Part shown: positions 18,728 through 44,606 of the stretch, in pieces
How the letters are laid out: each line of letters starts with the position of its first letter
Position numbering within the stretch: position 1 is the stretch's first letter
Notes under the pieces: model-generated
What the model saw: the letters and a program-made list of their open reading frames with translations, nothing else
Told to the model about the DNA's origin: nothing
Databases searched by the model: none
Program-made: the position numbers and the translations under genes
DNA from: Chlamydiota bacterium
GTDB taxonomy: Bacteria > Chlamydiota > Chlamydiia > Chlamydiales > SLFE01
Direction of reading: 5' to 3'
Length of the DNA: 45,831 nt
Assembly: GCA_011065065.1 (NCBI GenBank)
Contig: JAAKFL010000002.1
Location: 1-45,831, forward strand

Positions 18728-18803
18728 CATCCTTACTATCCTTTTATCCTGTTTTTTTTAGCACTTGGGAACAGGATAAAAGGATAGTAAGGATGGACAG
18801 GAT
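18728..18803. repeat. ATCCT-unit palindromic hairpin element, copy A4
   Basis: The perfect 25-bp arms are 18728-18752 and 18771-18795. The 18-nt loop begins TTTTTTTAGCAC. One extra unpaired unit (gacaggat) extends to 18803. The element lies 65 nt downstream of the stop of the 986-aa gene. Confidence 0.8.
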
Positions 18804-18867
18804 ATCTATTTAAATGATTGATAATGAGTAATTTTGATATTTAAGAGATCGCGAAACTTCGCGCAAA

Positions 18868-21828
18868 CTACAACTTATACTCGTGAGGCTGAGGATAAAT
18901 GCCCCACTTAGGATCGCGACGTGACCCATCCAACCAATGCCGCCATATAGACATCGGAGCTCCCACCGTCCCAGTATCATCTAGACGCCACATTTCAAAT
19001 TCTCCACTCCCAGGGTTCACCACAAACCCAAACATTTCTGTGACCCAGTTTGTATCAGCAAAAATAACCGGCTCTGGCATGGAATACCCAAGTTTTTGCA
19101 TGGTCGTGTGAATGATTTTGGTCCAATCATGAGTATTCGAGGTTTTCTCGATCGTCATTGTTATCAATGATTTACATAAACCTCTTAGGGCTTTTGCTGA
19201 AACCACATCTTGATAATGAACGTGATCATTCACCTGTTCAAAACATTCCATAATGGTTTGGTGCATCTGATCGTCGACTTCGGGGATGGCTTTAAAAATT
19301 TCGGTGACTCGATCTTTCAGTTGATAGGATTGAAATAGAGGAAGAAGCTCGTAAAGCATCGAGTCCACAATGTCTGGTGACAGGTAATACTTTTCCACCG
19401 GAGTCAGATTATTATCATAGGCAATGGTTTTGATCACATATTCTCGAAAGTCAACTGAACTCATTCTTTTGGGAGGATATGTAAAAGCTTTTCGAAAGAA
19501 ATGGTGAAATGATTTTGGGATTTTCTCCATAAGTCGTTCTAAAAGAAAGTCGACCATGCTCCCGTCGATCGATATTCGATCGATAAATGTCTTCATGGGG
19601 GCGATCAATTGATCCCGACACCAGATATAAGTGTAATCTTTGTTCTGCCAACCTTCCTTAAAACGAGTGAACCCGGGTTTTAAGTTAAAGGCATGAGTCG
19701 GGGACACCATCAACATATTACGTTTTGGATTTACCACGTATTTTTCAGAGATTTTAGGGGAAATTTCCTTCATCACATCAATGGCAAAAACGAGCAATTC
19801 TGTCTGATTTTCCATCCAACGATCTTGGTGAGTCGGTCTCTCTTCTCGTTTAAAATAACAGGACAACAAAGTGTCCAAACTTCCTCCAGAAGTATATGCC
19901 CACGGCTTTTTTTCCACTTTGTCAAGATGTTCCAGCGGCTTTTTGGGAACCGGCGCATTTTTAGCGGCCGCCATGCGGTAAATGGCTTTTTCCAAAAATT
20001 CTTCCGTTTTCACCATTCCAACGATGGAGGTAATAATCTGCATGATATCATTTTCAAAGCCTTGAAAAGTGGGATCTGTCACAAATTCGTGCTCAGTGGA
20101 ATTAAAAAACGAAGTCAAAACTTCTACAAAGTCATGCAAGTTTTTGACCGGAGTCCACGCACTCGTTATGGCTCTTCCATATTTGTAAATGAGCTGAAAT
20201 CCCGCCGGGCTGTCGTCGTAAGGCCCTGTGGTAATGTGGTGCATGTCGGCGTCATACACCTCCTGAAAGTATTGTGGAAAAAGTTTCAGATATTTGTCGA
20301 TCATCACGTCATACAAGTTGGCAAATGATTGGGCGCGATAACTGGCTTTTCCTCGAATTTCTTCAATGGTATGAAATTCATTCACCCGACTTTGGTACTC
20401 TGACTTCAACCACCGCGCCTCGTCTTCTGAAGCTCTTCTTAATCTCCCCTCAAGATATTTGACTTGAGCATAGACCTGTTCATATTGAACTTGGAACTCT
20501 TCAACTTTGCGATTTTCATTTTCCAATTTTTGCTTAATCGTGTTCAGAATGCATTCTCCGATGCCCCCCTTATCATCAGGGCGAAGTCCCAAGCTGGTAT
20601 AAAGGTTCCATGTCGAAAAGTTCGCTTTAGTTTCAGTAAAGGTGGCTAAAGTAAATTCCCAAGACTTTAGGAGGGCATTATCCGCTAAAGCCTTGAAAGC
20701 GTTTCCAGCAATTTTGATATCTTGGAGAAATTGTGCGCATCGTTGACCTATTCCACCTTTCCCAAGACCTGTCTTGACGACATGAACCATTAAACCCCCA
20801 TGGATCATCTCGTGAGGGCGATTGAGGTATTCATTGATGTCATCAGTAGTCAATTCATGATGTTGCATAAGGATCAACTCAATGAGCTCCTCAACGGAAA
20901 TGTGAAAACGATCCCCAACATACTCTCCAAACTCAACTGCTTTGAAAATTAAGTCTTTTAACTGCTCTCTTCTCTGGGGAAGCGGAATCTCTTTGGAAAG
21001 AATTTCAACTGCTAAAAGAGCATTGATCAAACCGGGTGAATGCCAGATAGGAGTCGCTTCTTCCACATCCTTCGAAAAAGGGATCTGACGACGCAAGTCT
21101 CCCGCACCCCAACTAAAACTCAAGGGAGCTGCAAACTCTTCTCCCCCAAACGTTCTCTTAAGCCGACCCGTACTCAAAAGCTCCGACACATCATTCACAA
21201 ACTGCTCAGGCTGTTCATCATGGATAATGACTGCCGGTGCCGTAGCAAAACAAGATCCCACGCTCTGCCTCAAATAACAAAGCAATGAAGAAAGAACAGC
21301 TCTCTTCGTATGAGCTTCCGTGATCACAGTTTTGGGACTCAGTTGCAGAGTATCCCGAATGATTTGATCCGCAAATTTATTCGAATAAGGCTTATCTAAA
21401 TTTTTAATTTTGCGGCGTAAGTCCTTGTTGTTTAGGATCCGTTCCAATATGGTCAATACATGCTCATGCCGTTTAGAATCGTATTGCCGATCGTTTCCTA
21501 AGGAATAAAAATTTTCTTGAATATGACGAATTGACTCCTTCAAAGCCTCCATATCCAATTTACCTTCATCATCCACCAAGACATTAGCTAAACGTCTTGT
21601 AAAGAGAACGTTACGAACACTGCATCCAGCTTGAACGGTGGAAAGATCCAGTTGTTTTGAAAGTTCGTCGTATTCCTCAGTACAAATCTTTTCAGGAAGA
21701 GTTCCTTTTTTCGCTAATTCAGCTTTCCCGTTGCGAACGTACTGTGAAAAGACATCTGAGTTCAGCTCGTCACTTTCCAAATGAAATTTTGTCGGTAATA
21801 AATCTTGAAATTTTATCTTTCGTGCCAT
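18868..21828 (-). CDS. large conserved-looking hypothetical protein (~986 aa) with papain-like motif order
   Basis: Long uninterrupted ORF. I placed the start at the ATG at 21828, which is preceded by AGGAG; the track starts 4 codons earlier at 21840. It contains RQSVGSCFATAP, SPTHAFN and FADTNW, plus a central coiled-coil-like segment. Confidence 0.6.
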   Translation of the reverse strand: MARKIKFQDLLPTKFHLESDELNSDVFSQYVRNGKAELAKKGTLPEKICTEEYDELSKQLDLSTVQAGCSVRNVLFTRRLANVLVDDEGKLDMEALKESIRHIQENFYSLGNDRQYDSKRHEHVLTILERILNNKDLRRKIKNLDKPYSNKFADQIIRDTLQLSPKTVITEAHTKRAVLSSLLCYLRQSVGSCFATAPAVIIHDEQPEQFVNDVSELLSTGRLKRTFGGEEFAAPLSFSWGAGDLRRQIPFSKDVEEATPIWHSPGLINALLAVEILSKEIPLPQRREQLKDLIFKAVEFGEYVGDRFHISVEELIELILMQHHELTTDDINEYLNRPHEMIHGGLMVHVVKTGLGKGGIGQRCAQFLQDIKIAGNAFKALADNALLKSWEFTLATFTETKANFSTWNLYTSLGLRPDDKGGIGECILNTIKQKLENENRKVEEFQVQYEQVYAQVKYLEGRLRRASEDEARWLKSEYQSRVNEFHTIEEIRGKASYRAQSFANLYDVMIDKYLKLFPQYFQEVYDADMHHITTGPYDDSPAGFQLIYKYGRAITSAWTPVKNLHDFVEVLTSFFNSTEHEFVTDPTFQGFENDIMQIITSIVGMVKTEEFLEKAIYRMAAAKNAPVPKKPLEHLDKVEKKPWAYTSGGSLDTLLSCYFKREERPTHQDRWMENQTELLVFAIDVMKEISPKISEKYVVNPKRNMLMVSPTHAFNLKPGFTRFKEGWQNKDYTYIWCRDQLIAPMKTFIDRISIDGSMVDFLLERLMEKIPKSFHHFFRKAFTYPPKRMSSVDFREYVIKTIAYDNNLTPVEKYYLSPDIVDSMLYELLPLFQSYQLKDRVTEIFKAIPEVDDQMHQTIMECFEQVNDHVHYQDVVSAKALRGLCKSLITMTIEKTSNTHDWTKIIHTTMQKLGYSMPEPVIFADTNWVTEMFGFVVNPGSGEFEMWRLDDTGTVGAPMSIWRHWLDGSRRDPKWGIYPQPHEYKL

Positions 21829-21901
21829 TTTTCTCCTCATTCAACTCTTAATGTACCTATTTTCACCATTCATTTTCCATAAAAAATTGAGCTCGTTCCC
21901 A

Positions 21902-22076: not shown

Positions 22077-22727
22077 ATGGAAAACAAAAAGACATATTCA
22101 CCTTATGAAAGAAATAATCATCAAAAAAACAGTGAATCTTTAGATAAAAAAGATAATTTACACAAAGTAAATTTACAATCAGTCATTAATGGAATGAAGC
22201 CAGGTGATTGGAAAGATGAAAATTTTCTTAAAAGCCACGAGCAGCTGTTAAATCACGTAAAAAAACTCGATTTAACACATATTGAAATTTCAGCAGATTT
22301 TCTTACATTATTGGGTGAAAACTGCCCAGAACTCAAATATTTAAAACTTCCCCCCAAATACACTGATGATGAGTTACTCAAACACCTTCCCAAAGGATTA
22401 ACCGAACTGAATTTGCATAGCTGCAAAAATATCACTGACATAGGGCTTGCGTACATAAGAGATCTAAAAGATCTGACTTCCCTTGATTTGCTGTGCTGCT
22501 TTAAAATCACAGATGCTGGGCTTGCCAACCTTGAAAATTTAACTGGATTAACCTCGCTTGATTTGTCTGGCTGCAACGGAATCTCAGATTTAGGTCTTGT
22601 GCACCTACAAGAACTAACTGAATTGACAGAACTGAATTTGTTTGGCTGTAAAAGAATCACCCGAAGAGGGCTTATTTACCTGGAAAAATTGGAAAGATTA
22701 ACCTCTCTTAACTTGTTTCGTTGCTAA
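22077..22727 (+). CDS. leucine-rich repeat protein, cysteine-containing (FBXL/AMN1-type) LRRs; eukaryote-like
   Basis: 216 aa with at least five ~25-aa repeats of the form LTxLxLxxCxxITDxGLxxLxxL (for example LTSLDLSGCNGISDLGLVHLQELTE). A good SD (AGGAG) precedes the ATG. Confidence 0.75.
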   Translation: MENKKTYSPYERNNHQKNSESLDKKDNLHKVNLQSVINGMKPGDWKDENFLKSHEQLLNHVKKLDLTHIEISADFLTLLGENCPELKYLKLPPKYTDDELLKHLPKGLTELNLHSCKNITDIGLAYIRDLKDLTSLDLLCCFKITDAGLANLENLTGLTSLDLSGCNGISDLGLVHLQELTELTELNLFGCKRITRRGLIYLEKLERLTSLNLFRC

Positions 22728-29592: not shown

Positions 29593-29754
29593 ATGATTGG
29601 TACCGGTGAAATTATTGTGATTCTTTGTGTTGTATTACTTTTGTTTGGCGGCAAAAAACTTCCTGAGTTTGCCAAAAGCCTAGGAAAAGGAATCCGTGAA
29701 TTTAAAAAAGCTTGTCAAGGTACAGACGAAGACCCTAAAGACTCATCAGAATGA
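29593..29754 (+). CDS. tatA: twin-arginine translocase subunit TatA/E (53 aa; absent from the ORF track because of its length)
   Basis: Hand translation gives [53 protein letters not shown]. This is the classic TatA TM helix, FGxxKLP hinge and amphipathic helix. An SD-like aaagga lies upstream. The stop overlaps the tatC ATG (ATGA). Confidence 0.8.
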
Positions 29755-30677
29755 ACACACACAACTTGTCTCCCGAATTCTGGGACCATGTTGAAGAACT
29801 GCGAAAAACGATCATCCGTTGCTTCATTACCATTGCGTTAGCAACAGCTCTCTGTTTCAGCTGTTTTTCCTGGCTTTACCCAGTGATCACGCACCCTCTC
29901 AACACAAAAAAGCAAGTCCAGAAAACTGTCATTTCAACCGAAAGACACTCAAACCCCAACCCCTATTCGATCACGATCCCTGCGCCTCCTCATTCCATCA
30001 CTTTTTTTTCTGATTCAGCTTACATGACGAAAGACAATCGGATTTCATTGCCTCCCAATGGATATATTGACATAGAAATGATAAATAACCCTCACTCCCT
30101 TGTGATTTTGGGTCCGTTAGAAGGAATCACGACCTCGTTAAAAATTAGCCTTTGGTTGGGACTTGTTATTTCTTTTCCGTTTTGGGGATTTTTCATGATG
30201 CAGTTCCTCCTCCCGGCCCTGAAAAACCACGAGAAAAATTTTATTTGTCCTTTTGCTTTCTGTTCGCTTTTATTCGTTTTTTTAGGAGGATTTATTGCCT
30301 TCACCTTTTTCATCCCGTTTACCAATGAAATTTTGCAGAATTTTAATCAAAAACTGGGAATTAACTTGTGGTCGATTTCCCATTATCTCAATTACACATT
30401 GATCATGTCGCTCTCCACAATTATTGCTTCAGAACTAGTTCTCGTGCTGTTTTTCTTAGTACATTACGGAAAAATTAATGATAAAAAAATGAGAAAATGG
30501 CGCCCAGGAGTTCTTCTGGGGATCTTTGTACTCAGCGCCATCCTGACTCCGCCAGATATATTGACACAGATTATCCTAGCACTCCCCATGGCTGGAATCT
30601 ATGAATTAGCAATTCTTTATGCCAAAATCAAAAGAAGTCAAAACCGTTTAAACCAGTATCTCATCGAGAATTTTTGA
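29751..30677 (+). CDS. tatC: twin-arginine translocase subunit TatC (with an enlarged first periplasmic loop)
   Basis: 308 aa with the N-terminal [15 protein letters not shown] motif and six hydrophobic segments. About 60 extra residues lie between TM1 and TM2 compared with typical ~250-aa TatC proteins. Confidence 0.8.
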
Positions 30678-32060
30678 CCTTCTTTCATGCCAGTCGGATA
30701 CTTTTATCCGCTTCAATTTAAAGCCCAACTTCTTGGCAATAAGGTTTTTGATCAAAGAGCTTCCCAAATAATGACCACTGCTGGAAAAGTGTGAGGGGCC
30801 ATCAACTTCGATTAATAGATTGTAATCTTTTAAATAAATATCGAAAAACAACCCTTCAACAAAATACTCATTATCTACACAGAATCCATTTGATTTAAGA
30901 CACTTCGAAATTTTTTGGTGTGTTCTACTTGATTCTGGAGATTCGCTTGTAGCTAATTTTTTTAAGATTTTAGTCTTATTCGGATAGTCATCTGAACCTC
31001 TTAGAACAAGCATTACCTGATGATATTGTTGTACATATTCAATCTTATCTAAAGATTCTGAACCTGCAATCATCTTATCAAATAAAGTTTTAGGTAAATT
31101 TAATCCAAAAACCGCAAAAGCCCAAGCTATATTCGCAATATCTTGGCTGTTGAAACCCCTGACCTTATCGCGCCCTTCGCAACTAAGAGCTGTCATAAGC
31201 CTTTCGTCATGAATCCCAAGGGTCGCAAAAGCCAAAGCTGTAATCGCAATCCCTTGGCTGTTGAAACCCCTGACCTTATGGCGCGCTTCGCAACTAAGAG
31301 CTGTCATAAGCTCTTCGTCATGAATCCCAAGTGTCGCAAAAGCCCAAGCTGTATTTGCAATATTTTGACTGTTGAAACCCCTGACCTTATGGTGCGCTTC
31401 ACCGCTAAGAGCTGTCATAAGCCTTTCGTCATGAATCCCAAGTGTCGCAAAAGCCAAAGCTGTACTCGCAATCCCTTGGCTGTTGAAACCCCTGATCTTA
31501 CGGCGCGCTTCACTGCTAAGAGCTGTCATAAGTTCTTTGTCATGAATCCCAAGTCTCGCAAAAGCCAAAGCTGTACTTGCTATGTTTCGACTTTCAAAGT
31601 CATTAATTTTTTCAATAGTTAAATCTCGAACAAATTGAAAAACTTTATGACTTTGAAGGTTTCGAAAATCTCCTCTTTGTTTGGCTAATTTGTGAAAAAA
31701 AGTCGAACAATTAATAAAATCAAAATTTTTGTGATGGTTACTGGCAACATTCAAAATTTCATTTACTGAATTGGCTTTTGTTATTTTTGAATTGATTTGC
31801 CTTGGATTTAATCGGTATTCTGTTTTTCTTTTATTTTTAGTTCTATCGATATTATGACATCTTGTTTGAATCGAAGAATCCTTACGATGAAATTCTTCCA
31901 CTTTCGATCTTGATCTTTGCCAAGGTTCTCTTCCTGATGATTCTTTCTTTTTGGCAGTATAATTTCTTCCTTGAAAGTCACGCCCCTGATATGAACGATC
32001 TCTGAATCTCTCTTCTCTTGAAAAACCTTTTATATTTGAATTAAAATAATATGGTTCCAT
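30648..32060 (-). CDS. RAP-domain protein with FASTK/heptatricopeptide-like 37-aa repeats; eukaryote-like candidate effector
   Basis: 470 aa with a basic R/K/G-rich N-terminus. There are four tandem 37-aa repeats (FNSQGIASTALAFATLGIHDERLMTALSGEAHHKVRG) plus degenerate flanking units. The C-terminal RAP-like motif is NLLIEVDGPSHF...LKRIKVSDW. Confidence 0.75.
   Translation of the reverse strand: MEPYYFNSNIKGFSREERFRDRSYQGRDFQGRNYTAKKKESSGREPWQRSRSKVEEFHRKDSSIQTRCHNIDRTKNKRKTEYRLNPRQINSKITKANSVNEILNVASNHHKNFDFINCSTFFHKLAKQRGDFRNLQSHKVFQFVRDLTIEKINDFESRNIASTALAFARLGIHDKELMTALSSEARRKIRGFNSQGIASTALAFATLGIHDERLMTALSGEAHHKVRGFNSQNIANTAWAFATLGIHDEELMTALSCEARHKVRGFNSQGIAITALAFATLGIHDERLMTALSCEGRDKVRGFNSQDIANIAWAFAVFGLNLPKTLFDKMIAGSESLDKIEYVQQYHQVMLVLRGSDDYPNKTKILKKLATSESPESSRTHQKISKCLKSNGFCVDNEYFVEGLFFDIYLKDYNLLIEVDGPSHFSSSGHYLGSSLIKNLIAKKLGFKLKRIKVSDWHERRSKILDEILV
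31155..31598 (-). repeat. 4 x 111-bp in-frame tandem coding repeats inside the RAP-protein gene
   Basis: Successive 111-bp units are very similar at the DNA level, for example the recurring ttgaaacccctgaccttatggcgcgcttc...gctaagagctgtcataagc...tcgtcatgaatcccaagtgtcgcaaaagcc. They create a spurious + strand ORF at 31143-31622. Confidence 0.85.
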
Positions 32061-32213
32061 AAAACATCCTCAATAACTTTAATTATGAATTAACAAAAAC
32101 AAATAATATCATAAAAAAAATGAAACAACAATAAAAATATTTTTTTATTATTCTAAAAGAAAAGTTAAATACGAGGTGGTTGGCGTTTAAACAGTGGCCT
32201 CGGGAAAAAACCA

Positions 32214-32290
32214 CATCTTGTCCATCCTTACAATCCTTTTATCCTGTTTTTTTAGCACAGGATAAAAGGATTGTAAGGATGGACAGGATG
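32214..32290. repeat. ATCCT-unit palindromic hairpin element, copy A5; probable bidirectional terminator
   Basis: The 34-nt arms 32214-32247 and 32257-32290 pair with 1 mismatch. The 9-nt loop is TTTTTTAGC. AAAAAA lies upstream and TTTTTTT downstream. The arm sequence is nearly identical to copy A4. Confidence 0.8.
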
Positions 32291-32356
32291 TTTTTTTAAA
32301 TAGTTTATAATAAATGACTTATAATTTTGTTATTTAGGAGATAGACACTTTGGTTT

Positions 32357-32758
32357 TTAATTTCTCCTCACATGAATGAGTTCCCTCTTATCAAAGTCAT
32401 CCAAATAGTAGCGCCACTCTTCAGCATCCCAGCTAAATTGTTCTACAAGATCCTTAAACCTTTGATAATCAATATCATGCATAATTCCGACGTAATTCAA
32501 AACCAACTGGAATTTCTTTTCGTCAACGCTCACAAATGTGGCAATTTTTGAATGAGGTACAGGAGAAGGTGCTTTCAAACACTCTCGAATACTGTCTGGA
32601 ATATAGTTATTTCCTTCATAAATCGCTGTCGTTAACCACAGTTTAGAGCTATCTAAACATGCTTTAGCAGTAATTAAAGAACCCAGAACACGCACATGCG
32701 CAACCCCATGCTCTTTTAATTCGTCTAAAACTGTCTTTATTTTGTTTTCAGCAACCAT
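32357..32758 (-). CDS. small hypothetical protein (133 aa); possibly class I type III secretion chaperone-like
   Basis: The size, an apparently acidic composition and a C-terminal pattern (FQLVLNYVGIMHDIDYQRFKDLVEQFSWDAEEWRYYL) are reminiscent of CesT/SycE-type chaperones. No firm motif. Confidence 0.3.
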   Translation of the reverse strand: MVAENKIKTVLDELKEHGVAHVRVLGSLITAKACLDSSKLWLTTAIYEGNNYIPDSIRECLKAPSPVPHSKIATFVSVDEKKFQLVLNYVGIMHDIDYQRFKDLVEQFSWDAEEWRYYLDDFDKRELIHVRRN

Positions 32759-38527: not shown

Positions 38528-38547
38528 GAATATCCCTTTGTAAAGTG

Positions 38548-40317
38548 ATGGAAGTTCGTTCTAATTTTCAAGATTTTTCATCAAAAATCCATGGCAATTT
38601 TGTCACAAAGACTCTCGGTAAAGCCGAAGATTACGGATTGATGATTACGGATTTAGTGGGAGAGTTTGTATTTGATCAATATGCCTCTATGAAACATGGT
38701 GAGAGGGCTTATTCTCGCAAGTTTTGCAATGAATTAAGAATGTATCCAGAAGACAAGGTTTTGGATTCTGAGGATGCGTTTCGTATTTCAAGAAGATATG
38801 AACGTGAAGCGATAAAATATTTGTTTAAAAGAAAGGTTTTGAAGCGTGGAAGAAAAGAAACCGATCTTGTTGAATTCTTAGATTATGTTCGCCCAATGGC
38901 AAAGTTTGTCGGCGCGAGTGGATTGACTGCTTTATCAGTCCCTTTAACATTTCCTGTTGCGATAAATTCTTTGGGATTAAGGCTGGCTTTACGGAGAGAC
39001 CGTAATCCGGTTATTTGCATTGGGAAGACACGGTCTGTAAACTTACCTAAAGGTAAAAAGTTTTCGATCATGACGTATAATACTCGTTTGTTTGAAAGCA
39101 ATATTTTGAATCGTATGTATGGCTTTAGAGACTCAAACATACGTGGTAAAGGAATTGCACGTCAAATTAGGCGGTGTAGATCTTCAGTGGTTTGTTTGCA
39201 GGGAACTTATGACACCAAAACTGTGAGGCATCAAATTGTACCTCAATTAGCTCGCGGTGGTTACAACATTTCTATGACCGTAAAGCCAGAAAAAACTGTG
39301 GGGATGTCACCGGGGTTGTTCACGGCTAGTTATTATCCGATTAAGGACGTTGCGTTTTATAAGTTTTCTCATAAAGAGTGTGAACCGCGGGTATCAAAAG
39401 GAGTTCTGATAGTCACGATCGAGATAAAAAAAGGGAAATACATTGCAGTTGCCAATACGCGGTTAGAAGGTCCTTATGATGAAGTTCCGAAGGAATTTGT
39501 GCGAAAGGGGTATAAGGAGGAATTACGGGAATGGCAACTTAAACAGATTAAAAAAATTATCTCAAATTATTGTCTCCACTCTCCCTATGAAATATCTGAT
39601 ATTATTTTAGCAGGTGATTTTCATATAGGACGTTATACAACTCCCATTTGTAAAAGTCCCTACAAGGCTGTTGAAAATCCAGAATACGAAGTTTTTAGGA
39701 GAGTTATACTAAAAAAAGGTAAAAAGACAGGCCTCAAATTTAAGGATTTAAACTTTCCTGATAGTGATCTTTCATTTAAAAAAGCTTGGCAACCTAGGTA
39801 TCCGAGTCATGAAGAAGATCACATTTATCATAATGAAACCGGATCCGTGTCGGGTACTCTCTTGGATACGAGAGCCTTTACTTATCAGTATTTTATCGAT
39901 CTTGTGGCTTGGAAAACATTTGATTATCTTGTTGCCCACCCACTGGTTTACTACAAGAAAGATATATTTGGAAAAAGTAAAAAAATGATTAAAGCTCCTC
40001 TTTTTGAACATGTTTTGGAATTTATACAATCCTCCCTAAAGGGGCTGAAACATAAAAAAGAGTTCTATTTGACCATAGGTTGGAGGAAAATTCAAAGATT
40101 ATGGGTTGAAAAAGCTTACAAAAAGGTTTTTTCGGACGTTGAATTGAATCTTTACACGAGACCTGACTGCGTAGACCATATTTGTTTAGCAAAACGTTCA
40201 AAAAACATATTTTCCAAAAAAGGGCATACAAATCGAGTGATTCTTCCTTGCTCGGAAATAGGGCTTCTATCTGATAAGCTCATCACGAGAGTATCTCTAG
40301 TGCTCTGTCACCACTAA
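38548..40317 (+). CDS. EEP-fold (sphingomyelinase C-like endonuclease/exonuclease/phosphatase) domain protein, apparently with substituted catalytic residues
   Basis: ~589 aa. The block order matches bacterial SMase and EEP proteins: FSIMTYNTRLF, SSVVCLQGTYD, KGVLIVTIEIKKGKYIAVANTRLEG, DIILAGDFHIG, VDHICLA and LLSDKLIT. The N-terminal ~170 aa contain a hydrophobic stretch (FVGASGLTALSVPLTFPVAINSLGLRLAL). Confidence 0.5.
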   Translation: MEVRSNFQDFSSKIHGNFVTKTLGKAEDYGLMITDLVGEFVFDQYASMKHGERAYSRKFCNELRMYPEDKVLDSEDAFRISRRYEREAIKYLFKRKVLKRGRKETDLVEFLDYVRPMAKFVGASGLTALSVPLTFPVAINSLGLRLALRRDRNPVICIGKTRSVNLPKGKKFSIMTYNTRLFESNILNRMYGFRDSNIRGKGIARQIRRCRSSVVCLQGTYDTKTVRHQIVPQLARGGYNISMTVKPEKTVGMSPGLFTASYYPIKDVAFYKFSHKECEPRVSKGVLIVTIEIKKGKYIAVANTRLEGPYDEVPKEFVRKGYKEELREWQLKQIKKIISNYCLHSPYEISDIILAGDFHIGRYTTPICKSPYKAVENPEYEVFRRVILKKGKKTGLKFKDLNFPDSDLSFKKAWQPRYPSHEEDHIYHNETGSVSGTLLDTRAFTYQYFIDLVAWKTFDYLVAHPLVYYKKDIFGKSKKMIKAPLFEHVLEFIQSSLKGLKHKKEFYLTIGWRKIQRLWVEKAYKKVFSDVELNLYTRPDCVDHICLAKRSKNIFSKKGHTNRVILPCSEIGLLSDKLITRVSLVLCHH

Positions 40318-40470: not shown

Positions 40471-41019
40471 TCAAAATAACTCAAGAATTTTTAAAGGGAT
40501 ATCTTTTGAGTGAATGGGCAGAGTGTGTTCGAAGAACTGTTCTTGATACCCTACACCGACAGTGATTACACTGGGTTTACAGAGTGGTAGCAGGCGATCA
40601 TAGTATCCTTTTCCATACCCAATGCGATTGTGATGTTTATCAAATGCGATGCCCGGAATGAATGCGATATCAACATCCCAAGGATTAATTTCCTCACATT
40701 TTTCAGGAATTGGTTCTGATATTCCCCATGATGAAAGACGCAGATCTGCAAGGTTTTTGATGTGAAATAACCTCAGTTGATCCCTTTCAACAAGAGGTAA
40801 AACTAGCCTTTCTTTTTCACACAACCATGTATTGAATTCCCAAAGACAGAGTTCTGACTGAAAACTGGCGTAAGAAAGAACCATTTTACCATTGGATACA
40901 TGGGACTTGAGAGATTGAGTGGCGTTTTGACTCGCCAAACCTCGTCTTTCCTCGGAAAGGCTGTCCCGAAGCTGATGCATTGAATCACGAATGTCATGTT
41001 TACAGTACAGGTTTACCAT
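40471..41019 (-). CDS. 5-formyltetrahydrofolate cyclo-ligase
   Basis: 182 aa with an MTHFS-like layout (LR..L....R near the N-terminus; IAFIPGIAFDKHHNRIGYGKGYYDR near the C-terminus). An alternative start is the ATG at 40980. Confidence 0.75.
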   Translation of the reverse strand: MVNLYCKHDIRDSMHQLRDSLSEERRGLASQNATQSLKSHVSNGKMVLSYASFQSELCLWEFNTWLCEKERLVLPLVERDQLRLFHIKNLADLRLSSWGISEPIPEKCEEINPWDVDIAFIPGIAFDKHHNRIGYGKGYYDRLLPLCKPSVITVGVGYQEQFFEHTLPIHSKDIPLKILELF

Positions 41020-42265
41020 TTTTCACTTTGACCTTTGCTGTGAGATTCCCATTAGCGTCGAATAGAGTGGCGATTCCATTTCCATTCGCAATGCGTGAAA
41101 CTGGGTTTGTATCATCTTTGCGATAATATTCCCCTTTCACAAGAGAATCTTTTTCGTATTCTTCAATCATCATCAGAGCTCCATCCCGATACCAAGTCAT
41201 GAGAACCCCATCTTTCTGGACGTTATTCATCTCTCTTTGACTTTCTTGAGTCCCATCCCGATACCAGGTTTTCACGGTTCCTTGAAGTTGCCCTGCAATC
41301 CAGTAAGTGGAAATTTTGGGGATAGTCCCTTTACTTTCCGGATAATACTCAATATCTTCTCCGTTTTTTAACCCATTTTTCACTTGATAAATCTGCAGAA
41401 TAAATCCTTCAGGACTAAAGACTTTAATCTCGCCTTCGGGCTCCCCGCGAATGTATTGTTGTTGTTCAACGAAGTAATCTTTGGCAAAAATGGCCTTATA
41501 TCCTTCTCCATAGCGGATAGAGCAAACTTCATTGCCTTTATTGTCATAGTAGAATCCAAATTGCAATAAACCATCATCATAAGTCTCTTCATAAGCGAGT
41601 TGATTGGGGTCCCAATACCGGTATGATTTTCCGTGGGGAAGTCCGTTTCGATATTCGATCGAGGAAAGAAGCTCGCCATTATCGAGATAAATCATTCGAG
41701 TTCCGTTCTCGAGATTTTTGTGAAAGTTCACAGTTTTCCAAACGTTACCCGAAGAGTGATAGTAGATGGATTTCCCTTGTAGCATCCCTTTTAAGTAAGG
41801 AATCTCAGCAATCAAGCACCCGTCATCATTCCAAATATTGGCAGTACAACCAAAGATCCAGGTTTGTTGTGCCGCATCAGATAAATCGGGCTCTCCTTCC
41901 AGCACAATAGCTTCAACATTCTTTATTCCATTGCTGTGCCAGGAGTAATAATTTCCAGAAGCACGCCCATTGATGATTTCCACATATTGAAACGGTTGCC
42001 CGTTTGGATGATAGGTAATTAATTCTCCGCGGACATTTCCTTGACCATCGCGATAGAAGACACGGAGAACCTTTTCATAAGGCTGTGAAGTCAAAAAATT
42101 CACCGCCTCATATTGCTCTAGACGATCACAATTGCTAATGGTTTCGGAAAACCCATTGCGGTCGGTAATACTTATGCTCGATAATCGCTCCTCTATTGGA
42201 ACAGAAGGAGCGCACCCAGAGAAACATAAACATAGGGCGCAAATCAAAAATACAGCATATTTCAT
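41000..42265 (-). CDS. MORN-variant / YwqK-type repeat lipoprotein
   Basis: Lipobox signal MKYAVFLICALCLCFSG|C. There are many ~23-aa repeats of the G.....Y..NG-type (for example GKSIYYHSSGNVWKTVNFHKNLENGTRMIYLDNGEL). The ATG at 42265 is preferred over the GTG at 42292. Confidence 0.65.
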   Translation of the reverse strand: MKYAVFLICALCLCFSGCAPSVPIEERLSSISITDRNGFSETISNCDRLEQYEAVNFLTSQPYEKVLRVFYRDGQGNVRGELITYHPNGQPFQYVEIINGRASGNYYSWHSNGIKNVEAIVLEGEPDLSDAAQQTWIFGCTANIWNDDGCLIAEIPYLKGMLQGKSIYYHSSGNVWKTVNFHKNLENGTRMIYLDNGELLSSIEYRNGLPHGKSYRYWDPNQLAYEETYDDGLLQFGFYYDNKGNEVCSIRYGEGYKAIFAKDYFVEQQQYIRGEPEGEIKVFSPEGFILQIYQVKNGLKNGEDIEYYPESKGTIPKISTYWIAGQLQGTVKTWYRDGTQESQREMNNVQKDGVLMTWYRDGALMMIEEYEKDSLVKGEYYRKDDTNPVSRIANGNGIATLFDANGNLTAKVKVKNGKPVL

Positions 42266-42269
42266 GGCG

Positions 42270-42908
42270 TTATGGCTCCGTTGAATATTCACGTTTTAAC
42301 AATTTTAAGTTTAAGTTGAAAATCTCGTTATCCTTACCCGCATATTTCTTTTCCAGCTTAAAGTCTGTGATGAGAAGTTGCAATGGATTGGGACCCGGCT
42401 GATAGGGACCGATGTCAATGCCTTCAATTTTGGCAAGGATGTTTTGCAAATCATTTAAGTCGGTTTCAACCGGATGAACTAGCGTTTCAAGGGTTTCTGT
42501 GAAGTAAGGATAAGATTGGACGACTCCTTCGGCAAATACAATCGAGTTCTTTTCTTTTAAGAAGTTGAGACGGTTCGTGACAGCCTCGTTCTCAATAAAG
42601 TTATTCTGACGTGCAATCTTTTCCAAACTCTCAGTTTCTGGCTTTAGAAGAGTGATGGATTCGATATTTTTATCTATGTAAAACCGGTCAGCATTTTGGT
42701 AATGGTTCATGACGGCTTTATTGGTCGCTTGCTTCTTTTCTTTGATCAATGCGGATTCATAAGTATAGGAAATATTTTCTCCAATCGACGAGACCTCGGA
42801 TGAATAAGAATAGAGTTGATAGAGCATAAATAGGATGGGTAGGCTTCCTGCTATGAGAGCGTAAACAATAAGACGGGATTGTGAAATTGATCTTAAGAAT
42901 TTGTTCAT
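42270..42908 (-). CDS. single-pass membrane protein, GspM/PilO-like by position and topology
   Basis: 212 aa with an N-terminal TM segment (LIVYALIAGSLPILFMLYQLY). It is translationally coupled (ATGA) to the upstream GspL/PilM-like gene. No sequence motif recognised. Confidence 0.35.
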   Translation of the reverse strand: MNKFLRSISQSRLIVYALIAGSLPILFMLYQLYSYSSEVSSIGENISYTYESALIKEKKQATNKAVMNHYQNADRFYIDKNIESITLLKPETESLEKIARQNNFIENEAVTNRLNFLKEKNSIVFAEGVVQSYPYFTETLETLVHPVETDLNDLQNILAKIEGIDIGPYQPGPNPLQLLITDFKLEKKYAGKDNEIFNLNLKLLKREYSTEP

Positions 42909-44524
42909 AGGCTTTTTCTCCGTTTAGGTGTTCGATTACGCAGATAAAACGAAGTCCGATAAATATCCCCGCTTGAAGTCCATTTAACCTCTCCTTTTGG
43001 ATCGACAATGTCATTCGGAGCGATCAAGGCATCATGAAATTCACGTGCCAACTTGGGTATGTCGGAACTAAACTCAATTTCCACCTTTACACGATACTTC
43101 TCATTCTTTTTTTTCGCATCGGGCCTTTTCACCATCACATACTGAAAATTTTTGATATTCAATAGAGGTTTCCCTGTCGACTCATCAGCAACCAAAGGAT
43201 GCTTGGCCAGCCATGCCAGGACATCACTCACTCTTGGTGTATCAGGCAAAAGCTGGAAAGTATTGGGAGATTTTAAAATCATGTTTTGCAAGAGATCAAG
43301 CCGGCCCATCAGCTGCCCTGTAGTCATATCTCTGAGAGGTGGTGATGTTTCGTAAGGATTTTTTTCTAAAAAGTCGTTTTCAAAGGAGGAATAGGGCTTT
43401 TCAATTGCTTTAAGGAGGCGTGAGTAGTTTTCCTTGACATGATCGAATCGAGACTCAATCCAAGCGTTCCCCATAAAATATAAGACGAAGGCGATGACTA
43501 TCGAAGCCCCAAAGTAGCAAAGAAGAGGAAACTTTATCCGTTTCCATGGATCCCCGTATGCTAATTCGGCCTTCCTAAAATTGATCGCCGGGTCTTCTCC
43601 GGCCATCGAATCAAGAGCCAAACCAATCGGGATGGCATATTCTTGTAAGATTTCGCTTGTCTGCCCAAACTGGGGCTCCGGACGGGAAATTTCCACATGC
43701 AAACCATCGGAAAAAATTGTTTCAATCCCATTGAGGGAGGCACCGTGACCCGTCAATAATACCTTCGCGATGTTTTCTCCTTTATGCTGCTTAACAAGAG
43801 CGAAAATCGCACGACTCACCTCTTGTTTTAAACGAATAACGAATTGGTGGAGAGTCGGCATTTTTTCAAGATTTCCAGAAGAAAAATCAACATCTGATAT
43901 ACTTTTATCAGATCCCAAAGCTTCCACCGCCACAGATAATCCTAATGGAATCGCATGTTCTGCTAAAAGCTTTCCCTTCTCAGCCAAAATACATAGAGTC
44001 TCATCCATGCCGAAATGGAGAATGAGCGTCGGTAAGCCTGAAGACGGCGAGCTCAATGCATTGGCAAATGTCGCAAGAGCAACTGGTGAGGTCGACACAA
44101 CTTCTGGGTCGATGTCCAATTTTTGTAACGCTTCGATATGAGATTGAATCAACTCTTTTTTCACAGCCAAAATCGTCAAATTAGTACTCGATTTCGTTTG
44201 AGAAATCTCAATACTCTCCAAAATTGACTCTTCTATTGGAAATGGAACAAGGGGTTCAGCCTGAAAAGTCAAAACAGCATCCACGTCCTTTTTCTTGGTT
44301 AACTTGATCTGAAGAGATCTCACTAAAACATCACGAGCCGAAAGACTTGAAACCAAAATAGCCTGGTCATTTGGAATGTCAAGCCGCTTTACATTGGCTA
44401 AATCCAATGTCTTCACTTCAGTGATTTTTGGGATTCCTTTATCGGAAGAAATATTTGCAATTTTGAGGTTATTTCCCGAGAAGAAGAGTCCGACTGCGGA
44501 AGTAGATGTTAAGATTTCGAGCAT
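42905..44524 (-). CDS. GspL/PilM-like secretion or pilus assembly protein (actin-like ATPase-fold domain + TM + periplasmic domain)
   Basis: ~539 aa. The N-terminus is PilM-like (AVGLFFSGNNLKIANIS ...VLLTGHGASLNGIETIFSDGL), followed by one TM segment (FPLLCYFGASIVIAFVLYFMG) and a C-terminal domain. The ATG at 44524 is preferred over the TTG at 44530. Confidence 0.5.
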   Translation of the reverse strand: MLEILTSTSAVGLFFSGNNLKIANISSDKGIPKITEVKTLDLANVKRLDIPNDQAILVSSLSARDVLVRSLQIKLTKKKDVDAVLTFQAEPLVPFPIEESILESIEISQTKSSTNLTILAVKKELIQSHIEALQKLDIDPEVVSTSPVALATFANALSSPSSGLPTLILHFGMDETLCILAEKGKLLAEHAIPLGLSVAVEALGSDKSISDVDFSSGNLEKMPTLHQFVIRLKQEVSRAIFALVKQHKGENIAKVLLTGHGASLNGIETIFSDGLHVEISRPEPQFGQTSEILQEYAIPIGLALDSMAGEDPAINFRKAELAYGDPWKRIKFPLLCYFGASIVIAFVLYFMGNAWIESRFDHVKENYSRLLKAIEKPYSSFENDFLEKNPYETSPPLRDMTTGQLMGRLDLLQNMILKSPNTFQLLPDTPRVSDVLAWLAKHPLVADESTGKPLLNIKNFQYVMVKRPDAKKKNEKYRVKVEIEFSSDIPKLAREFHDALIAPNDIVDPKGEVKWTSSGDIYRTSFYLRNRTPKRRKSL

Positions 44525-44606
44525 AGACAAGGCCTTTACATATTAATCGTAAGAGTTTAATATACAGTATAATTTTACTTTTTATCAAGTAAGAGGGTCT
44601 TTTTTT

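What the first reader, a model, noticed from the sequence alone, without database searches (positions are those of the whole stretch)
30648..32060. Eukaryote-type RAP-domain protein with FASTK/heptatricopeptide-like repeats in a bacterial chromosome
The 470-aa ORF combines three parts. First, a basic, R/K/G-rich and probably disordered N-terminus. Second, tandem 37-aa helical repeats of the form F-N-S-Q-x-I-A-N/S-T-A-W/L-A-F-A-T-L-G-(x)-D-x-x-L-M-x-A-L. This is the repeat signature I associate with FASTK-family and apicomplexan/algal RAP proteins (heptatricopeptide or octotricopeptide type RNA-binding repeats). Third, a C-terminal LIEVDGPSHF...K.LG....RI...W block typical of the RAP domain, a PD-(D/E)XK-like fold. 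RAP proteins are overwhelmingly eukaryotic organellar RNA-metabolism factors. In an obligate intracellular bacterium, this protein is therefore a strong candidate for a horizontally acquired, secreted effector that acts on host (possibly mitochondrial) RNA. The gene has a very AT-rich private upstream region. Its 3' end overlaps the 3' end of the convergent tatC gene by 30 nt (30648-30677) with no terminator in between, which is consistent with a secondary insertion.
Basis: partly seen in the sequence, partly recalled or inferred. Interest (0 to 1): 0.78.

Follow-up and report, generated by a model that had tools for sequence, protein, structure and literature searches.

The report
Organelle-type RNA-repeat nuclease in a chlamydia
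An environmental chlamydia carries a lineage-specific inserted gene for a protein built like the helical-repeat plus RAP-nuclease factors that process RNA in eukaryotic mitochondria and plastids, so it is a credible but untested candidate for a secreted protein that acts on host RNA.

Summary
[quoted passage not shown] Pfam DUF1601 and RAP both pass their cut-offs; FAST_1 does not. A confident AlphaFold model matches Toxoplasma mitoribosomal RAP/HPR proteins, trypanosome RESC6 and human FASTKD4. The isolated C-terminal domain matches RAP domains first, then Vsr-like PD-(D/E)XK nucleases. The host is a Chlamydiales chromosome. Its two closest relatives have the same gene order (tatA-tatC-small ORF-UDG...enolase-recA) but lack this gene, so about 1.7 kb was inserted at the tatC 3' end, which explains the 30-nt overlap. 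No protein in 1.84 billion representatives exceeds 37% identity in the non-repeat part. The nearest relatives are mostly copies on bacterial contigs, mainly Chlamydiae MAGs and often in tandem arrays, so the donor is unresolved. Within proteins, repeat position 5 is hypervariable, which hints at a recognition code. Secretion, host targeting and mitochondrial action are untested, and the N-terminus is not a canonical presequence. Verdict: a divergent bacterial member of a known, mainly eukaryotic family, with an interesting but unproven effector hypothesis.

The parts
30648..32060 (-). CDS of the 470-aa HPR-repeat/RAP protein (stop codon 30648-30650)
   Evidence: ORF list. Pfam DUF1601 52.6 bits (cut-off 25) and RAP 29.9 bits (cut-off 24.2). 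AlphaFold mean pLDDT 83.3, pTM 0.79.
31827..32060 (-). N-terminal disordered, basic region (aa 1-78), with K/R clusters KKK (aa 37-39) and KNKRK (aa 75-79); no hydrophobic signal peptide
   Evidence: pLDDT below 50 for residues 1-53 and 57-78. Net charge +11 over aa 1-85. The maximum 19-aa hydropathy in the whole protein is 1.24 and the first 30 aa average -1.63.
31599..31805 (-). Degenerate N-terminal helical hairpins that cap the solenoid (aa 86-154); they begin with the NPRQIN motif shared with homologues
   Evidence: Helices H86-95 through H138-150. The PRQIN block is shared with P0005 and P0007 and aligns with P0011 (PRALT).
31155..31598 (-). Four near-identical 37-aa HPR-type repeats (aa 155-302), each with two helices
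   Evidence: Repeat layout and pairwise identities. Helix pairs H157-170/H175-187 through H268-280/H286-298. DUF1601 matches in 4 stretches. RESC6 alignment E=3.9e-23.
31113..31575 (.). Tandem DNA repeat underlying the protein repeats: 111 bp x 4.2 copies, 89% matches
   Evidence: Tandem Repeats Finder score 714.
30927..31154 (-). Degenerate fifth repeat plus linker helices (aa 303-378)
   Evidence: Repeat 5 is 24-35% identical to repeats 1-4. Helices H305-317, H324-336, H340-354 and H362-370.
30651..30926 (-). RAP domain (aa 379-470), an alpha/beta Vsr-like PD-(D/E)XK fold; candidate active-site residues E398, D407, E418, D420 and H424 lie in and around the FFDIYL...LIEVDGPSHF block
   Evidence: Pfam RAP. 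These residues are at least 90% conserved across 60 homologues, and most of them remain so in the 18-sequence C-terminal alignment. Domain model pLDDT 89.5. Foldseek matches T. gondii RAP domains, then I-Bth0305I (3r3p, TMt 0.75), 3hrl and Vsr 1vsr. The family profile hits T. gondii RAP at 3.5e-14, FASTKD4 at 0.0047 and 3r3p at 0.0074.
30648..30677 (.). 30-nt convergent overlap between the 3' end of the RAP gene and the 3' end of tatC (29751-30677, +)
   Evidence: The tatC C-terminal tails are not conserved among the window, L014 and L015.
30629..32369 (.). Lineage-specific segment of about 1.7 kb, absent from the syntenic region of the closest relatives (RAP gene plus its upstream spacer)
   Evidence: Homology to L014/L015 stops at about 30628 and resumes at about 32370. 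Relatives have tatC directly followed by the small convergent ORF and UDG. No RAP homologue is present in L014-L016. No target-site duplication was found.
32067..32071 (-). Ribosome-binding site GAGGA, 6 nt before the ATG
   Evidence: Sequence read directly.
32207..32297 (-). Palindromic intrinsic-terminator-like element (41-nt arms, 9-nt loop, followed by a U-run on the minus strand) between the upstream 133-aa gene and the RAP gene; a second copy lies at about 18735-18805
   Evidence: Inverted repeat I1. RNA fold -62.3 kcal/mol, z = -13. Second copy.
32357..32758 (-). Conserved 133-aa hypothetical gene; in relatives it sits directly against the tatC 3' end (flank of the insertion, not part of the RAP gene)
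   Evidence: Orthologues in L014 (140 aa) and L015 (132 aa) overlap tatC by 24 and 21 nt.

Best explanation
The gene is real, intact and lineage-specific. It encodes a modular nucleic-acid-binding nuclease of the eukaryotic organellar HPR/RAP type. The parts are a disordered basic N-terminus, a 37-aa helical-repeat solenoid that most likely reads RNA sequence, and a C-terminal RAP (Vsr-like PD-(D/E)XK) domain that keeps the family's conserved acidic and histidine residues, so it could cleave or clamp RNA. Shown here: the architecture, the fold, family membership, the chlamydial host, and insertion relative to the nearest relatives. Inferred: the protein has no Sec or Tat signal, and chlamydiae deliver cytosolic effectors through their type III system. 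I therefore think it is most likely exported into the eukaryotic host cell, where it binds or cuts particular host RNAs. These may be organellar, by analogy with every characterised relative, but cytosolic or nuclear RNAs are equally possible given the NLS-like basic clusters. Specificity would be set by the few positions that differ between otherwise near-identical repeats, chiefly repeat position 5, then 2 and 29.
For: Architecture and family: Pfam DUF1601 and RAP both pass their cut-offs. PDB sequence matches are RESC6 at 3.9e-23 and T. gondii RAP proteins. The full model has pLDDT 83, and its top 40 Foldseek hits are all eukaryotic mitochondrial HPR/OPR/RAP proteins, including FASTKD4. The isolated domain matches RAP domains first, then Vsr-like nucleases. 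Candidate active-site residues E398, D407, E418, D420 and H424 are at least 90% conserved in 60 homologues. Host and insertion: the chromosome is chlamydial, and the gene is absent at the syntenic site in the two closest relatives. It has its own RBS, an upstream terminator and an AT-rich spacer. No signal peptide or transmembrane segment was seen. Most differences between repeats are non-synonymous. Position 5 is the most variable position within proteins, across 18 family members. Distribution: the bacterial copies found in one genome per GTDB species are few and mostly in Chlamydiae MAGs, often as tandem paralogue arrays. Such arrays are typical of diversifying effector families. Literature: characterised RAP/HPR/FASTK proteins bind organellar RNA, and FASTKD4 function needs a RAP aspartate (PMC5449608, PMC6212722, PMC8190603).
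Against: Nothing here shows secretion, host localisation or RNA binding. The N-terminus contains many acidic residues and does not look like a mitochondrial presequence. Family members also occur in MAGs labelled Bdellovibrionales and Chlorobiaceae, next to ordinary bacterial genes, so a function inside bacteria is possible. The nuclease core (IEVDGPSHF) is shared with phage homing-endonuclease-like proteins, so a DNA target is not excluded. The gene is missing from the closest relatives, so it is dispensable. Codon usage and GC (36.7% against 40.4%; GC3 29.5%) are only mildly atypical, so they say little about donor or age.
Confidence: 0.5

Rival explanations
1. The protein stays inside the bacterium and acts on the chlamydia's own RNA, for example in processing or decay of particular transcripts. 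On this view it is a bacterial counterpart of organellar RNA-maturation factors rather than an effector.
For: Homologues sit among ordinary bacterial genes in L005 (glycosyltransferases, QueC, radical-SAM) and L008. There is no recognisable export signal. Organellar RAP/HPR proteins act on bacterial-type transcripts (PMC6212722).
Against: The gene is absent from the closest relatives, so it has no core housekeeping role. No orthologue above 37% identity exists anywhere. Tandem diversifying arrays in other bacterial contigs fit host-interaction families better than housekeeping RNA enzymes. The long disordered N-terminus is typical of secreted chlamydial proteins (background knowledge).
Confidence: 0.2
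2. It is a selfish or conflict-type DNA nuclease, either a free-standing homing-endonuclease-like gene or a defence or toxin nuclease. The repeat array recognises DNA, and the gene's presence between tatC and its neighbour reflects its own mobility.
For: The isolated domain resembles the I-Bth0305I homing-endonuclease catalytic domain (TMt 0.75), Vsr and AbaSI/PvuRts1I. Residues 340-470 hit phrog_559 at 8.5e-15 and the 'homing endonuclease' PHROGs 9084 and 3339. Sixty-one phage contigs encode nucleases related to this core, and the three whose ORFs I read (L020, L035, L080) carry the same IEVDGPSHF motif. The gene is a solitary insertion with its own regulatory DNA. There are weak NCBIfam hits to the C-termini of the anti-phage proteins Hhe and ProA.
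Against: The phage proteins share only the nuclease core and none has the repeats. The nearest relatives of the non-repeat module that I inspected in the exhaustive search also carry helical repeats (P0221, P0222, P0227, P0232, P0037), apart from the best hit P0220 (173 aa), which does not. The family profile prefers T. gondii RAP (3.5e-14) over 3r3p (0.0074). PADLOC gives no hit. No target-site duplication, integrase or intron context was found. There is no partner immunity or methylase gene.
Confidence: 0.12
3. The gene is a non-functional passenger, either a recently acquired gene on its way to decay or an assembly artefact that joins host (eukaryotic) DNA to the bacterial contig.
For: No orthologue exists in relatives. 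The protein is very divergent. GC is slightly low.
Against: The ORF is uninterrupted over 470 codons, with in-frame repeats, a proper RBS and conserved catalytic-type residues. It overlaps tatC physically and is flanked on both sides by syntenic chlamydial genes. The upstream palindromic element is repeated elsewhere in the same chromosome window, which ties the segment to this genome. The structure prediction is confident.
Confidence: 0.05

Closest known systems
Apicomplexan / alveolate HPR-RAP proteins (e.g. Toxoplasma gondii mitoribosomal RAP-domain proteins, PDB 9i05_Xi and 9g6k_LJ; Plasmodium HPR/RAP proteins)
   Same: The architecture is the same: an alpha-solenoid of roughly 37-aa two-helix repeats followed by a C-terminal RAP domain. 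These are the best whole-protein structural matches (E=9.5e-11) and the best RAP-domain sequence and profile matches. The repeats are 37 aa and lack the OPR PPPEW motif, as in the HPR definition (PMC6212722).
   Different: Sequence identity is only about 19-25%. The known proteins are nucleus-encoded eukaryotic proteins imported into mitochondria or the apicoplast, and many are structural parts of mitoribosomes. This one is encoded on a bacterial chromosome, has nearly identical rather than degenerate repeats, and lacks an organellar presequence.
Trypanosoma brucei RESC6 (RNA-editing substrate-binding complex, PDB 8fn4_6); Pfam RESC6 PF26188
   Same: It is the best sequence match among solved structures (E=3.9e-23 over the repeat region). 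The precomputed Pfam RESC6 family is listed for the window protein and most homologues. It is also a helical-repeat RNA-binding scaffold.
   Different: The similarity lies in the repeats only. RESC6 works inside a multi-protein mitochondrial editing complex that does not exist in bacteria.
Human FASTK family (FASTKD4 FAST1-FAST2-RAP module, PDB 9gek)
   Same: Helical region plus RAP domain. The structural match is E=4e-5 and the profile match to the RAP part is 0.0047. FASTKD4 function depends on a conserved RAP aspartate (PMC5449608), and the window protein keeps the family's conserved acidic residues.
   Different: FAST_1 is below the Pfam cut-off and FAST_2 is not detected. The FASTK helical region is not made of near-identical 37-aa repeats.
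Pfam DUF1601 (PF07671), a 37-residue repeat family of unknown function
   Same: The window repeats match it above its cut-off (52.6 bits against 25, 4 stretches), and so do several bacterial-context homologues. From memory, not checked here, the family was seeded from Protochlamydia amoebophila proteins.
   Different: DUF1601 has no assigned function, and I found no paper that mentions it. This report links it to the HPR/RESC6/RAP superfamily and to a defined insertion event.
Vsr-like PD-(D/E)XK nucleases: I-Bth0305I homing endonuclease (3r3p), NGO0050 (3hrl), E. coli Vsr (1vsr), DUF559 / MTES_1575, and phage homing-endonuclease PHROGs 559 and 9084
   Same: The nuclease fold and the core ExDGxxH motif are the same. 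MTES_1575 scores 25.7 bits, below its 38.2 cut-off.
   Different: Those are DNA enzymes with other or no targeting domains. None carries the helical repeat array.
TAL effectors and PPR proteins (functional analogy only)
   Same: These are tandem helical repeats in which a few hypervariable residues per repeat specify one nucleotide each. Here position 5 is the most variable position within proteins. TAL effectors are also type III-secreted bacterial proteins that act on host nucleic acid (background knowledge).
   Different: There is no sequence or fold homology to TALEs. The repeat length (37 aa) and the code, if any, are unknown, and no target is known.

Membership tests
RAP domain (Pfam PF08373) | Match to the RAP profile at or above the curated gathering score | tested here: met
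   29.9 bits against a cut-off of 24.2, aa 417-459. A profile of the C-terminal module hits T. gondii RAP-domain proteins at E=3.5e-14.
RAP domain (Pfam PF08373) | Alpha/beta Vsr-like PD-(D/E)XK nuclease fold | tested here: met
   Domain model pLDDT 89.5 with a helix followed by three strands, a helix and a fourth strand. Foldseek matches RAP domains, then 3r3p (TMt 0.75), 3hrl and 1vsr.
RAP domain (Pfam PF08373) | Conserved acidic and histidine residues of the putative active site | tested here: met
   E398, D407, E418, D420, G421, P422 and H424 are at least 90% conserved in 60 homologues and are all present in the window protein. Their equivalence to FASTKD4 D531 (PMC5449608) was not mapped residue by residue.
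RAP domain (Pfam PF08373) | RNA binding or cleavage, and organellar site of action | not testable with these tools
   This needs biochemistry, CLIP and localisation experiments.
Heptatricopeptide repeat (HPR) proteins (Hillebrand et al. 2018, PMC6212722) | Tandem 37-aa motif | tested here: met
   111-bp DNA period; 37-aa register.
Heptatricopeptide repeat (HPR) proteins (Hillebrand et al. 2018, PMC6212722) | Each motif forms two alpha-helices that stack into a solenoid | tested here: met
   DSSP shows helix pairs in every repeat, with pLDDT of 94-98 over the four near-identical repeats. The best structural matches are HPR/RAP mitoribosomal proteins.
Heptatricopeptide repeat (HPR) proteins (Hillebrand et al. 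2018, PMC6212722) | Match to the published HPR MEME motif | not tested
Only the length, helix pattern and absence of PPPEW were compared.
Octotricopeptide repeat (OPR) proteins | 38-40-aa repeats with the conserved PPPEW motif | tested here: not met
   The repeats are 37 aa and contain no PPPEW (definition from PMC6212722 and PMC8635915).
FASTK family (FAST_1 + FAST_2 + RAP) | FAST_1 (PF06743) at or above its gathering score | tested here: not met
   20.2 bits against a cut-off of 27.4. Some homologues do pass, e.g. L005 at 142 bits and L001 at 61 bits.
FASTK family (FAST_1 + FAST_2 + RAP) | FAST_2 domain present | tested here: not met
   No FAST_2 hit at E up to 10.
Pfam DUF1601 (PF07671) | Match at or above the gathering score | tested here: met
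   52.6 bits against 25, E=3.9e-14, 4 stretches.
Chlamydial type III secreted effector | N-terminal secretion signal that drives T3SS-dependent translocation | not testable with these tools
   Only permissive features were seen: a disordered polar N-terminus and no Sec or Tat signal. No predictor or assay was available.
Horizontally acquired gene | Absent from the syntenic locus of the closest relatives | tested here: met
   L014 (RecA 86% identical) and L015 (82%) have tatA-tatC-small ORF-UDG with no RAP gene.
Horizontally acquired gene | Identifiable donor lineage (eukaryote or bacterium) | tested here: inconclusive
   A neighbour-joining tree of the C-terminal module groups the window protein with bacterial-context copies, but the branches are long and the best sister group has only 29% bootstrap support. 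The best non-self hit is 37% identical.

The most novel reading that the evidence does not exclude
Environmental chlamydiae, and a few other bacteria that live in or on other cells, may deploy a family of secreted, programmable RNA-targeting nucleases. These would be built from near-identical 37-aa HPR repeats whose hypervariable residues (position 5, then 2 and 29) spell out an RNA target, fused to a RAP nuclease. They would be an RNA-directed counterpart of TAL effectors, used to cut or sequester host organellar or cytosolic transcripts. Because the repeats are so uniform, they could also give the first tractable route to the still unknown HPR/FASTK RNA-recognition code.
Probability: 0.25. 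Interest if true: 0.85.

Novelty: new member of a known kind. Interest (0 to 1): 0.58.

Why it matters
RAP, HPR and FASTK proteins are regarded as hallmark eukaryotic organellar RNA factors. The HPR paper found none in the three eubacterial genomes it sampled (PMC6212722), and the RAP survey found only isolated bacterial candidates (PMC8190603). A well-defined chlamydial copy, mapped as an insertion, shows that this module circulates among intracellular bacteria. It gives a concrete candidate for a bacterial protein that manipulates host RNA. I found no open-access paper linking the RAP domain, DUF1601 or FASTK to chlamydiae. The nearly identical repeats with a few hypervariable positions also offer a simpler system than the degenerate eukaryotic proteins for working out how HPR repeats read RNA.

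Tried and rejected
1. Exact-sequence contig look-up of the protein returned nothing on record.
I repeated it with the 8-sequence alignment A2. That scan used only one repeat pattern, so bacterial members with other repeat consensus sequences were missed.
3. The third word-indexed homology search, with the non-repeat C-terminal 168 aa, gave no hit because too few 5-mers were shared. It was replaced by the exhaustive HMMER search.
4. The 90% cluster look-up of ten window proteins found no named close relative, so the genus is still unknown.
5. I searched for target-site duplications or mobility genes at the insertion boundaries and found none.
6. I tested codon usage and GC as an HGT signal. The gene has the second-lowest GC3 in the window, but it is not a clear outlier.
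7. PADLOC gave no defence-system match. The NCBIfam hits to Hhe and ProA are far below their cut-offs.
8. The neighbour-joining phylogeny was too weakly supported to name a donor.
10. Literature: no paper mentions DUF1601, and none combines RAP domain with chlamydia, RAP domain with eukaryotic-like effectors, or FASTK with Chlamydiae in a relevant way. The FEMS review on eukaryotic-like domains (fuac012) is not held.
11. The antisense ORF 31143-31622 (+, 159 aa) is a by-product of the repeat array. It is itself repetitive and I did not pursue it.
Full report

Yes. The minus-strand ORF 30648-32060 starts with ATG and encodes 470 aa. A GAGGA ribosome-binding site lies 6 nt upstream.

The first 85 residues have net charge +11 (14 R, 9 K). 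AlphaFold predicts disorder there, with pLDDT below 50 for residues 1-53 and 57-78.

Tandem Repeats Finder reports a 111-bp unit in 4.2 copies with 89% matches at 31113-31575. In protein terms this gives four near-identical 37-aa units (aa 155-302; 70-86% aa and 78-93% DNA identity) and a degenerate fifth unit (aa 303-339).

The C-terminal LIEVDGPSHF block lies in a Pfam RAP match of 29.9 bits, above the 24.2 cut-off. The stop codon lies 30 nt inside the 3' end of the convergent tatC gene (29751-30677; TatC E=2.9e-51).

**2. What is the protein?**

- **Sequence profiles.** Pfam gives DUF1601 (52.6 bits against 25, four stretches) and RAP above their cut-offs. MTES_1575 (25.7 against 38.2) and FAST_1 (20.2 against 27.4) fall below theirs, and there is no FAST_2 hit.
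- **Solved structures by sequence.** The best match is trypanosome RESC6 (E=3.9e-23, over the repeats). Next come the Chlamydomonas mitoribosomal protein mL115 and Toxoplasma RAP-domain proteins.
- **Structure prediction.** An AlphaFold model built on 60 homologues is confident (pLDDT 83.3, pTM 0.79). It shows a disordered N-terminus, an alpha-solenoid over residues 86-370 with one helix pair per repeat, and an alpha/beta domain over residues 379-469.
- **Fold search, whole protein.** Foldseek against the PDB returns only eukaryotic mitochondrial helical-repeat proteins at the top. These are Toxoplasma mitoribosomal RAP/HPR proteins (E=9.5e-11), RESC6, Polytomella ASA2 (TM 0.63), Chlamydomonas and Polytomella mitoribosomal OPR-type proteins, and the human FASTKD4 FAST1-FAST2-RAP module (E=4e-5).
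- **Fold search, C-terminal domain alone.** Modelled separately (pLDDT 89.5), the C-terminal module matches Toxoplasma RAP domains first. It then matches Vsr-like PD-(D/E)XK nucleases: the I-Bth0305I catalytic domain 3r3p (TMt 0.75), NGO0050 (3hrl), Vsr (1vsr), and AbaSI/PvuRts1I.
- **Family profile.** A profile of the module hits Toxoplasma RAP proteins at 3.5e-14, FASTKD4 at 0.0047 and 3r3p at 0.0074.
- **Conserved residues.** E398, D407, E418, D420, G421, P422 and H424 are at least 90% conserved among 60 homologues, and all are present here (most also).

The published HPR criteria are 37 aa, two helices and no PPPEW motif (PMC6212722). By these the repeats are HPR-type. They are not OPR-type, and the protein is not a FASTK member in the strict Pfam sense.

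**3. Whose genome is this?**

The neighbours include thrS, parA, a pGP6-D-like UPF0137 gene, adenylosuccinate lyase, a Na+/H+ antiporter, tatA/tatC, UDG, tRNA-Pro, enolase, recA and recBCD-type genes. From background knowledge, UPF0137 is a family of the chlamydial virulence plasmid.

RecA is 75-79% identical to named Chlamydiales, Parachlamydia and Waddliaceae sequences, and up to 87% identical to unnamed metagenomic ones. The window is therefore from an 'environmental' member of the Chlamydiales. I could not determine the genus, because no relative at 90% identity or above carries a name.

**4. Is it an insertion?**

Yes. Contigs carrying the two closest RecA relatives with long context are L014 (86% RecA identity) and L015 (82%). 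Both keep the order antiporter, tatA, tatC, a small convergent ORF of 132-140 aa, UDG, and on to the hexapeptide transferase, polyprenyl synthase, enolase and recA. Neither has a RAP gene, and tblastn finds no homologue in those loci.

DNA similarity to the window stops at about 30628, inside the tatC tail, and resumes at about 32370, at the 3' end of the small ORF. About 1.7 kb is therefore lineage-specific: the RAP gene plus its 296-bp upstream spacer.

In the relatives it is the small ORF that overlaps the tatC 3' end, by 21-24 nt. The three tatC tails are unrelated in sequence. The simplest reading is that the insertion replaced the tatC tail, and tatC now runs into the inserted DNA until it meets a stop codon. 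That produces the 30-nt overlap.

I found no target-site duplication or mobility gene. Base composition is only mildly deviant (GC 36.7% and GC3 29.5% against 40.4% for the window).

The spacer contains a 41-nt-arm palindrome followed by a U-run (-62 kcal/mol, z = -13). This is a plausible terminator for the upstream gene. A second copy lies just downstream of another minus-strand gene at about 18735-18805. That ties the inserted segment to this genome's own repeat repertoire.

**5. Where does the family occur, and where did this copy come from?**

- **First homology search.** It found 92 relatives, none more than 38% identical. Named ones are eukaryotic (Pavlovales, Skeletonema, Eutreptiella, and MMETSP/EukProt transcripts). 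Contigs L018 and L019 also look eukaryotic, with sparse and fragmented gene calls and an eIF2B-epsilon W2 domain.
- **Tandem arrays on bacterial-looking contigs.** Several of the best hits lie on compact, prokaryote-style contigs that carry tandem arrays of paralogues. L001 has three. L002 has four, next to a transposase and a HicA-domain protein. L017 has at least three.
- **Genome scan.** A pattern scan of one genome per GTDB species found ten loci. Four are Chlamydiae or Parachlamydiaceae MAGs, two are Bdellovibrionales MAGs, and one is a 'Chlorobiaceae' MAG where the gene sits among glycosyltransferase and queuosine genes. Three more are weak, short matches.
- **Exhaustive search.** A HMMER search of residues 340-470 against 1.84 billion representatives gave 188 hits at E up to 1e-3 and only three at E up to 1e-10. 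The best non-self hit is 37% identical. The top hits I inspected, apart from the best one (P0220, a 173-aa protein without repeats), are K/N-rich proteins with helical repeats before the RAP domain. One of them, P0221, matches the ORF in the Parachlamydiaceae MAG locus L004.
- **Phylogeny.** A neighbour-joining tree of the C-terminal module places the window protein with the bacterial-context copies. Branches are long and the best sister group has only 29% bootstrap support.

My conclusions are these:

- The family is predominantly eukaryotic and rare in bacteria.
- Within bacteria it is concentrated in Chlamydiae.
- This copy has no orthologue in public data.
- Its proximate donor is unresolved. 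It may be another bacterium or a eukaryote.

The few copies outside Chlamydiae are still a caveat.

**6. The nuclease core is also a phage nuclease core.**

A scan of IMG/VR found 61 phage contigs that encode relatives of residues ~330-470 only. The three examples I inspected are 255-268-aa proteins with an N-terminal region that looks DNA-binding and the same IEVDGPSHF motif. Two of them give weak DUF559 hits (only L020's passes the cut-off), and both that I scanned against PHROGs match 'homing endonuclease' families.

The window's own C-terminal module hits phrog_559 at 8.5e-15. None of the phage proteins has the repeats. The solenoid-RAP fusion, not the nuclease alone, is what links the window protein to the organellar family. 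The result still keeps a DNA-targeting rival alive.

**7. A hint about mechanism.**

Most differences among the four near-identical repeats are non-synonymous: 5-11 non-synonymous against 2-5 synonymous codon differences per pair.

I examined 18 family members whose repeats are homogeneous, both bacterial and eukaryotic. The most variable position within a protein is repeat position 5, with mean entropy 1.60 bits and residues E/D/G/N/A/Q/S. It directly follows a near-invariant Gln and is the third residue of helix A. Positions 2 (1.37 bits) and 29 (1.23 bits) come next.

A few variable residues in an otherwise fixed scaffold is the logic of PPR and TALE recognition codes (background knowledge). 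It fits one-repeat-one-nucleotide reading. This is an inference from small samples, not a demonstration.

**8. Most likely function and rivals.**

What is shown: an intact, lineage-specifically inserted gene for an HPR-solenoid/RAP protein with conserved nuclease-type residues, in a chlamydia.

What is inferred: the protein has no Sec or Tat signal and no transmembrane segment, and it has a long disordered N-terminus. Chlamydiae export cytosolic effectors by type III secretion (background knowledge). Every characterised relative handles RNA (PMC5449608, PMC6212722, PMC8190603). I therefore favour a secreted effector that binds or cuts host RNA (confidence about 0.5).

The N-terminus has six acidic residues in its first 40 aa (my count from the sequence) and KKK and KNKRK clusters. 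It does not look like a presequence and could equally be an NLS or an RG-type RNA-binding tail.

The rivals are:
- action on the bacterium's own RNA (0.2);
- a selfish or conflict-type DNA nuclease (0.12);
- a decaying passenger or assembly artefact (0.05).

**9. Novelty and score.**

The kind is known: RAP/HPR family, with the repeats already captured as Pfam DUF1601. Bacterial RAP candidates have been mentioned in passing (PMC8190603), and OPR proteins have been reported in Coxiella burnetii (Rahire et al. 2012, as cited in PMC8635915). I found no paper that links the RAP domain, DUF1601 or FASTK to Chlamydiae. The HPR paper found no HPR proteins in the three eubacterial genomes it sampled (PMC6212722).

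I classify the finding as a new, highly divergent member of a known kind in an unusual host, with a well-documented insertion and a testable effector and recognition-code hypothesis. Interest: 0.58.

Noticed in passing
window 32207-32297 and about 18735-18805 (both minus strand): A repeated palindromic element that looks like a terminator. It has 41-nt arms, a U-run after the stem, and similar flanks over about 130 nt (78% identity). Each copy lies directly downstream of a minus-strand gene. It is absent from all 16 loci fetched up to that point. It may be a REP- or MITE-like element specific to this genome.
   Followed up: partly
window 29593-29754 (+) and 29751-30677 (+): A tatA-tatC pair with a 4-nt overlap, conserved in relatives L014 and L015, so this chlamydia has a Tat export system. 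The last ~15 tatC codons are unrelated in sequence among the three genomes. In every case they are overlapped by a convergent gene.
   Followed up: partly
window 147-1025 (-) and 1022-1906 (-): Two tandem paralogous genes for glycosyltransferase family 92 (Pfam Glyco_transf_92, E about 1e-29 to 1e-31). From memory this family is mostly eukaryotic, so this may be another eukaryote-like acquisition.
   Followed up: no
window 22077-22727 (+); L014 833-2323; L015 1-615: A small leucine-rich-repeat protein lies upstream of thrS in the window. In the relatives, LRR and F-box-LRR proteins sit next to the Na+/H+ antiporter. These are typical eukaryote-like repeat proteins of environmental chlamydiae.
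   Followed up: no
window 18868-21840 (-), 17136-18554 (-), 38545-40317 (+): Three large ORFs (990, 472 and 590 aa) have no Pfam or PADLOC match. The ORF at the position after recA is replaced in L015 by a 568-aa Exo_endo_phos protein and in L014 by a 538-aa protein with no domain hit, so this slot is variable among relatives.
   Followed up: no
window 31143-31622 (+): A 159-aa antisense ORF lies inside the repeat array. Its translation is itself repetitive, and it is most likely a by-product of the 111-bp repeats rather than a gene.
   Followed up: no
L001 (4.7 kb), L002/L003 (18.6 kb contig), L017 (4.9 kb): Metagenomic contigs carry three to four tandem RAP/RESC6-repeat paralogues in tight, prokaryote-style spacing. 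On L002 they sit beside a DDE transposase fragment and an 811-aa protein with a C-terminal HicA-toxin domain. This suggests locally expanding gene families in some, probably intracellular, bacteria.
   Followed up: partly
IMG/VR loci L020, L035, L080 (ORFs at about 4600-5440): Phage proteins of 255-268 aa combine an N-terminal region that looks like a helix-turn-helix with a nuclease core carrying the same IEVDGPSHF motif as RAP domains. L020 and L035, the two scanned against PHROGs, match homing-endonuclease families. This may bear on the evolutionary origin of the RAP domain.
   Followed up: partly
window 41000-42292 (-) and 42905-44530 (-): A MORN-repeat protein and a PilM_2/GspL-like protein lie in a block (5-FTHF cyclo-ligase, MORN protein, a 212-aa ORF, PilM-like protein) that is conserved in L014 and L015.
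   Followed up: no
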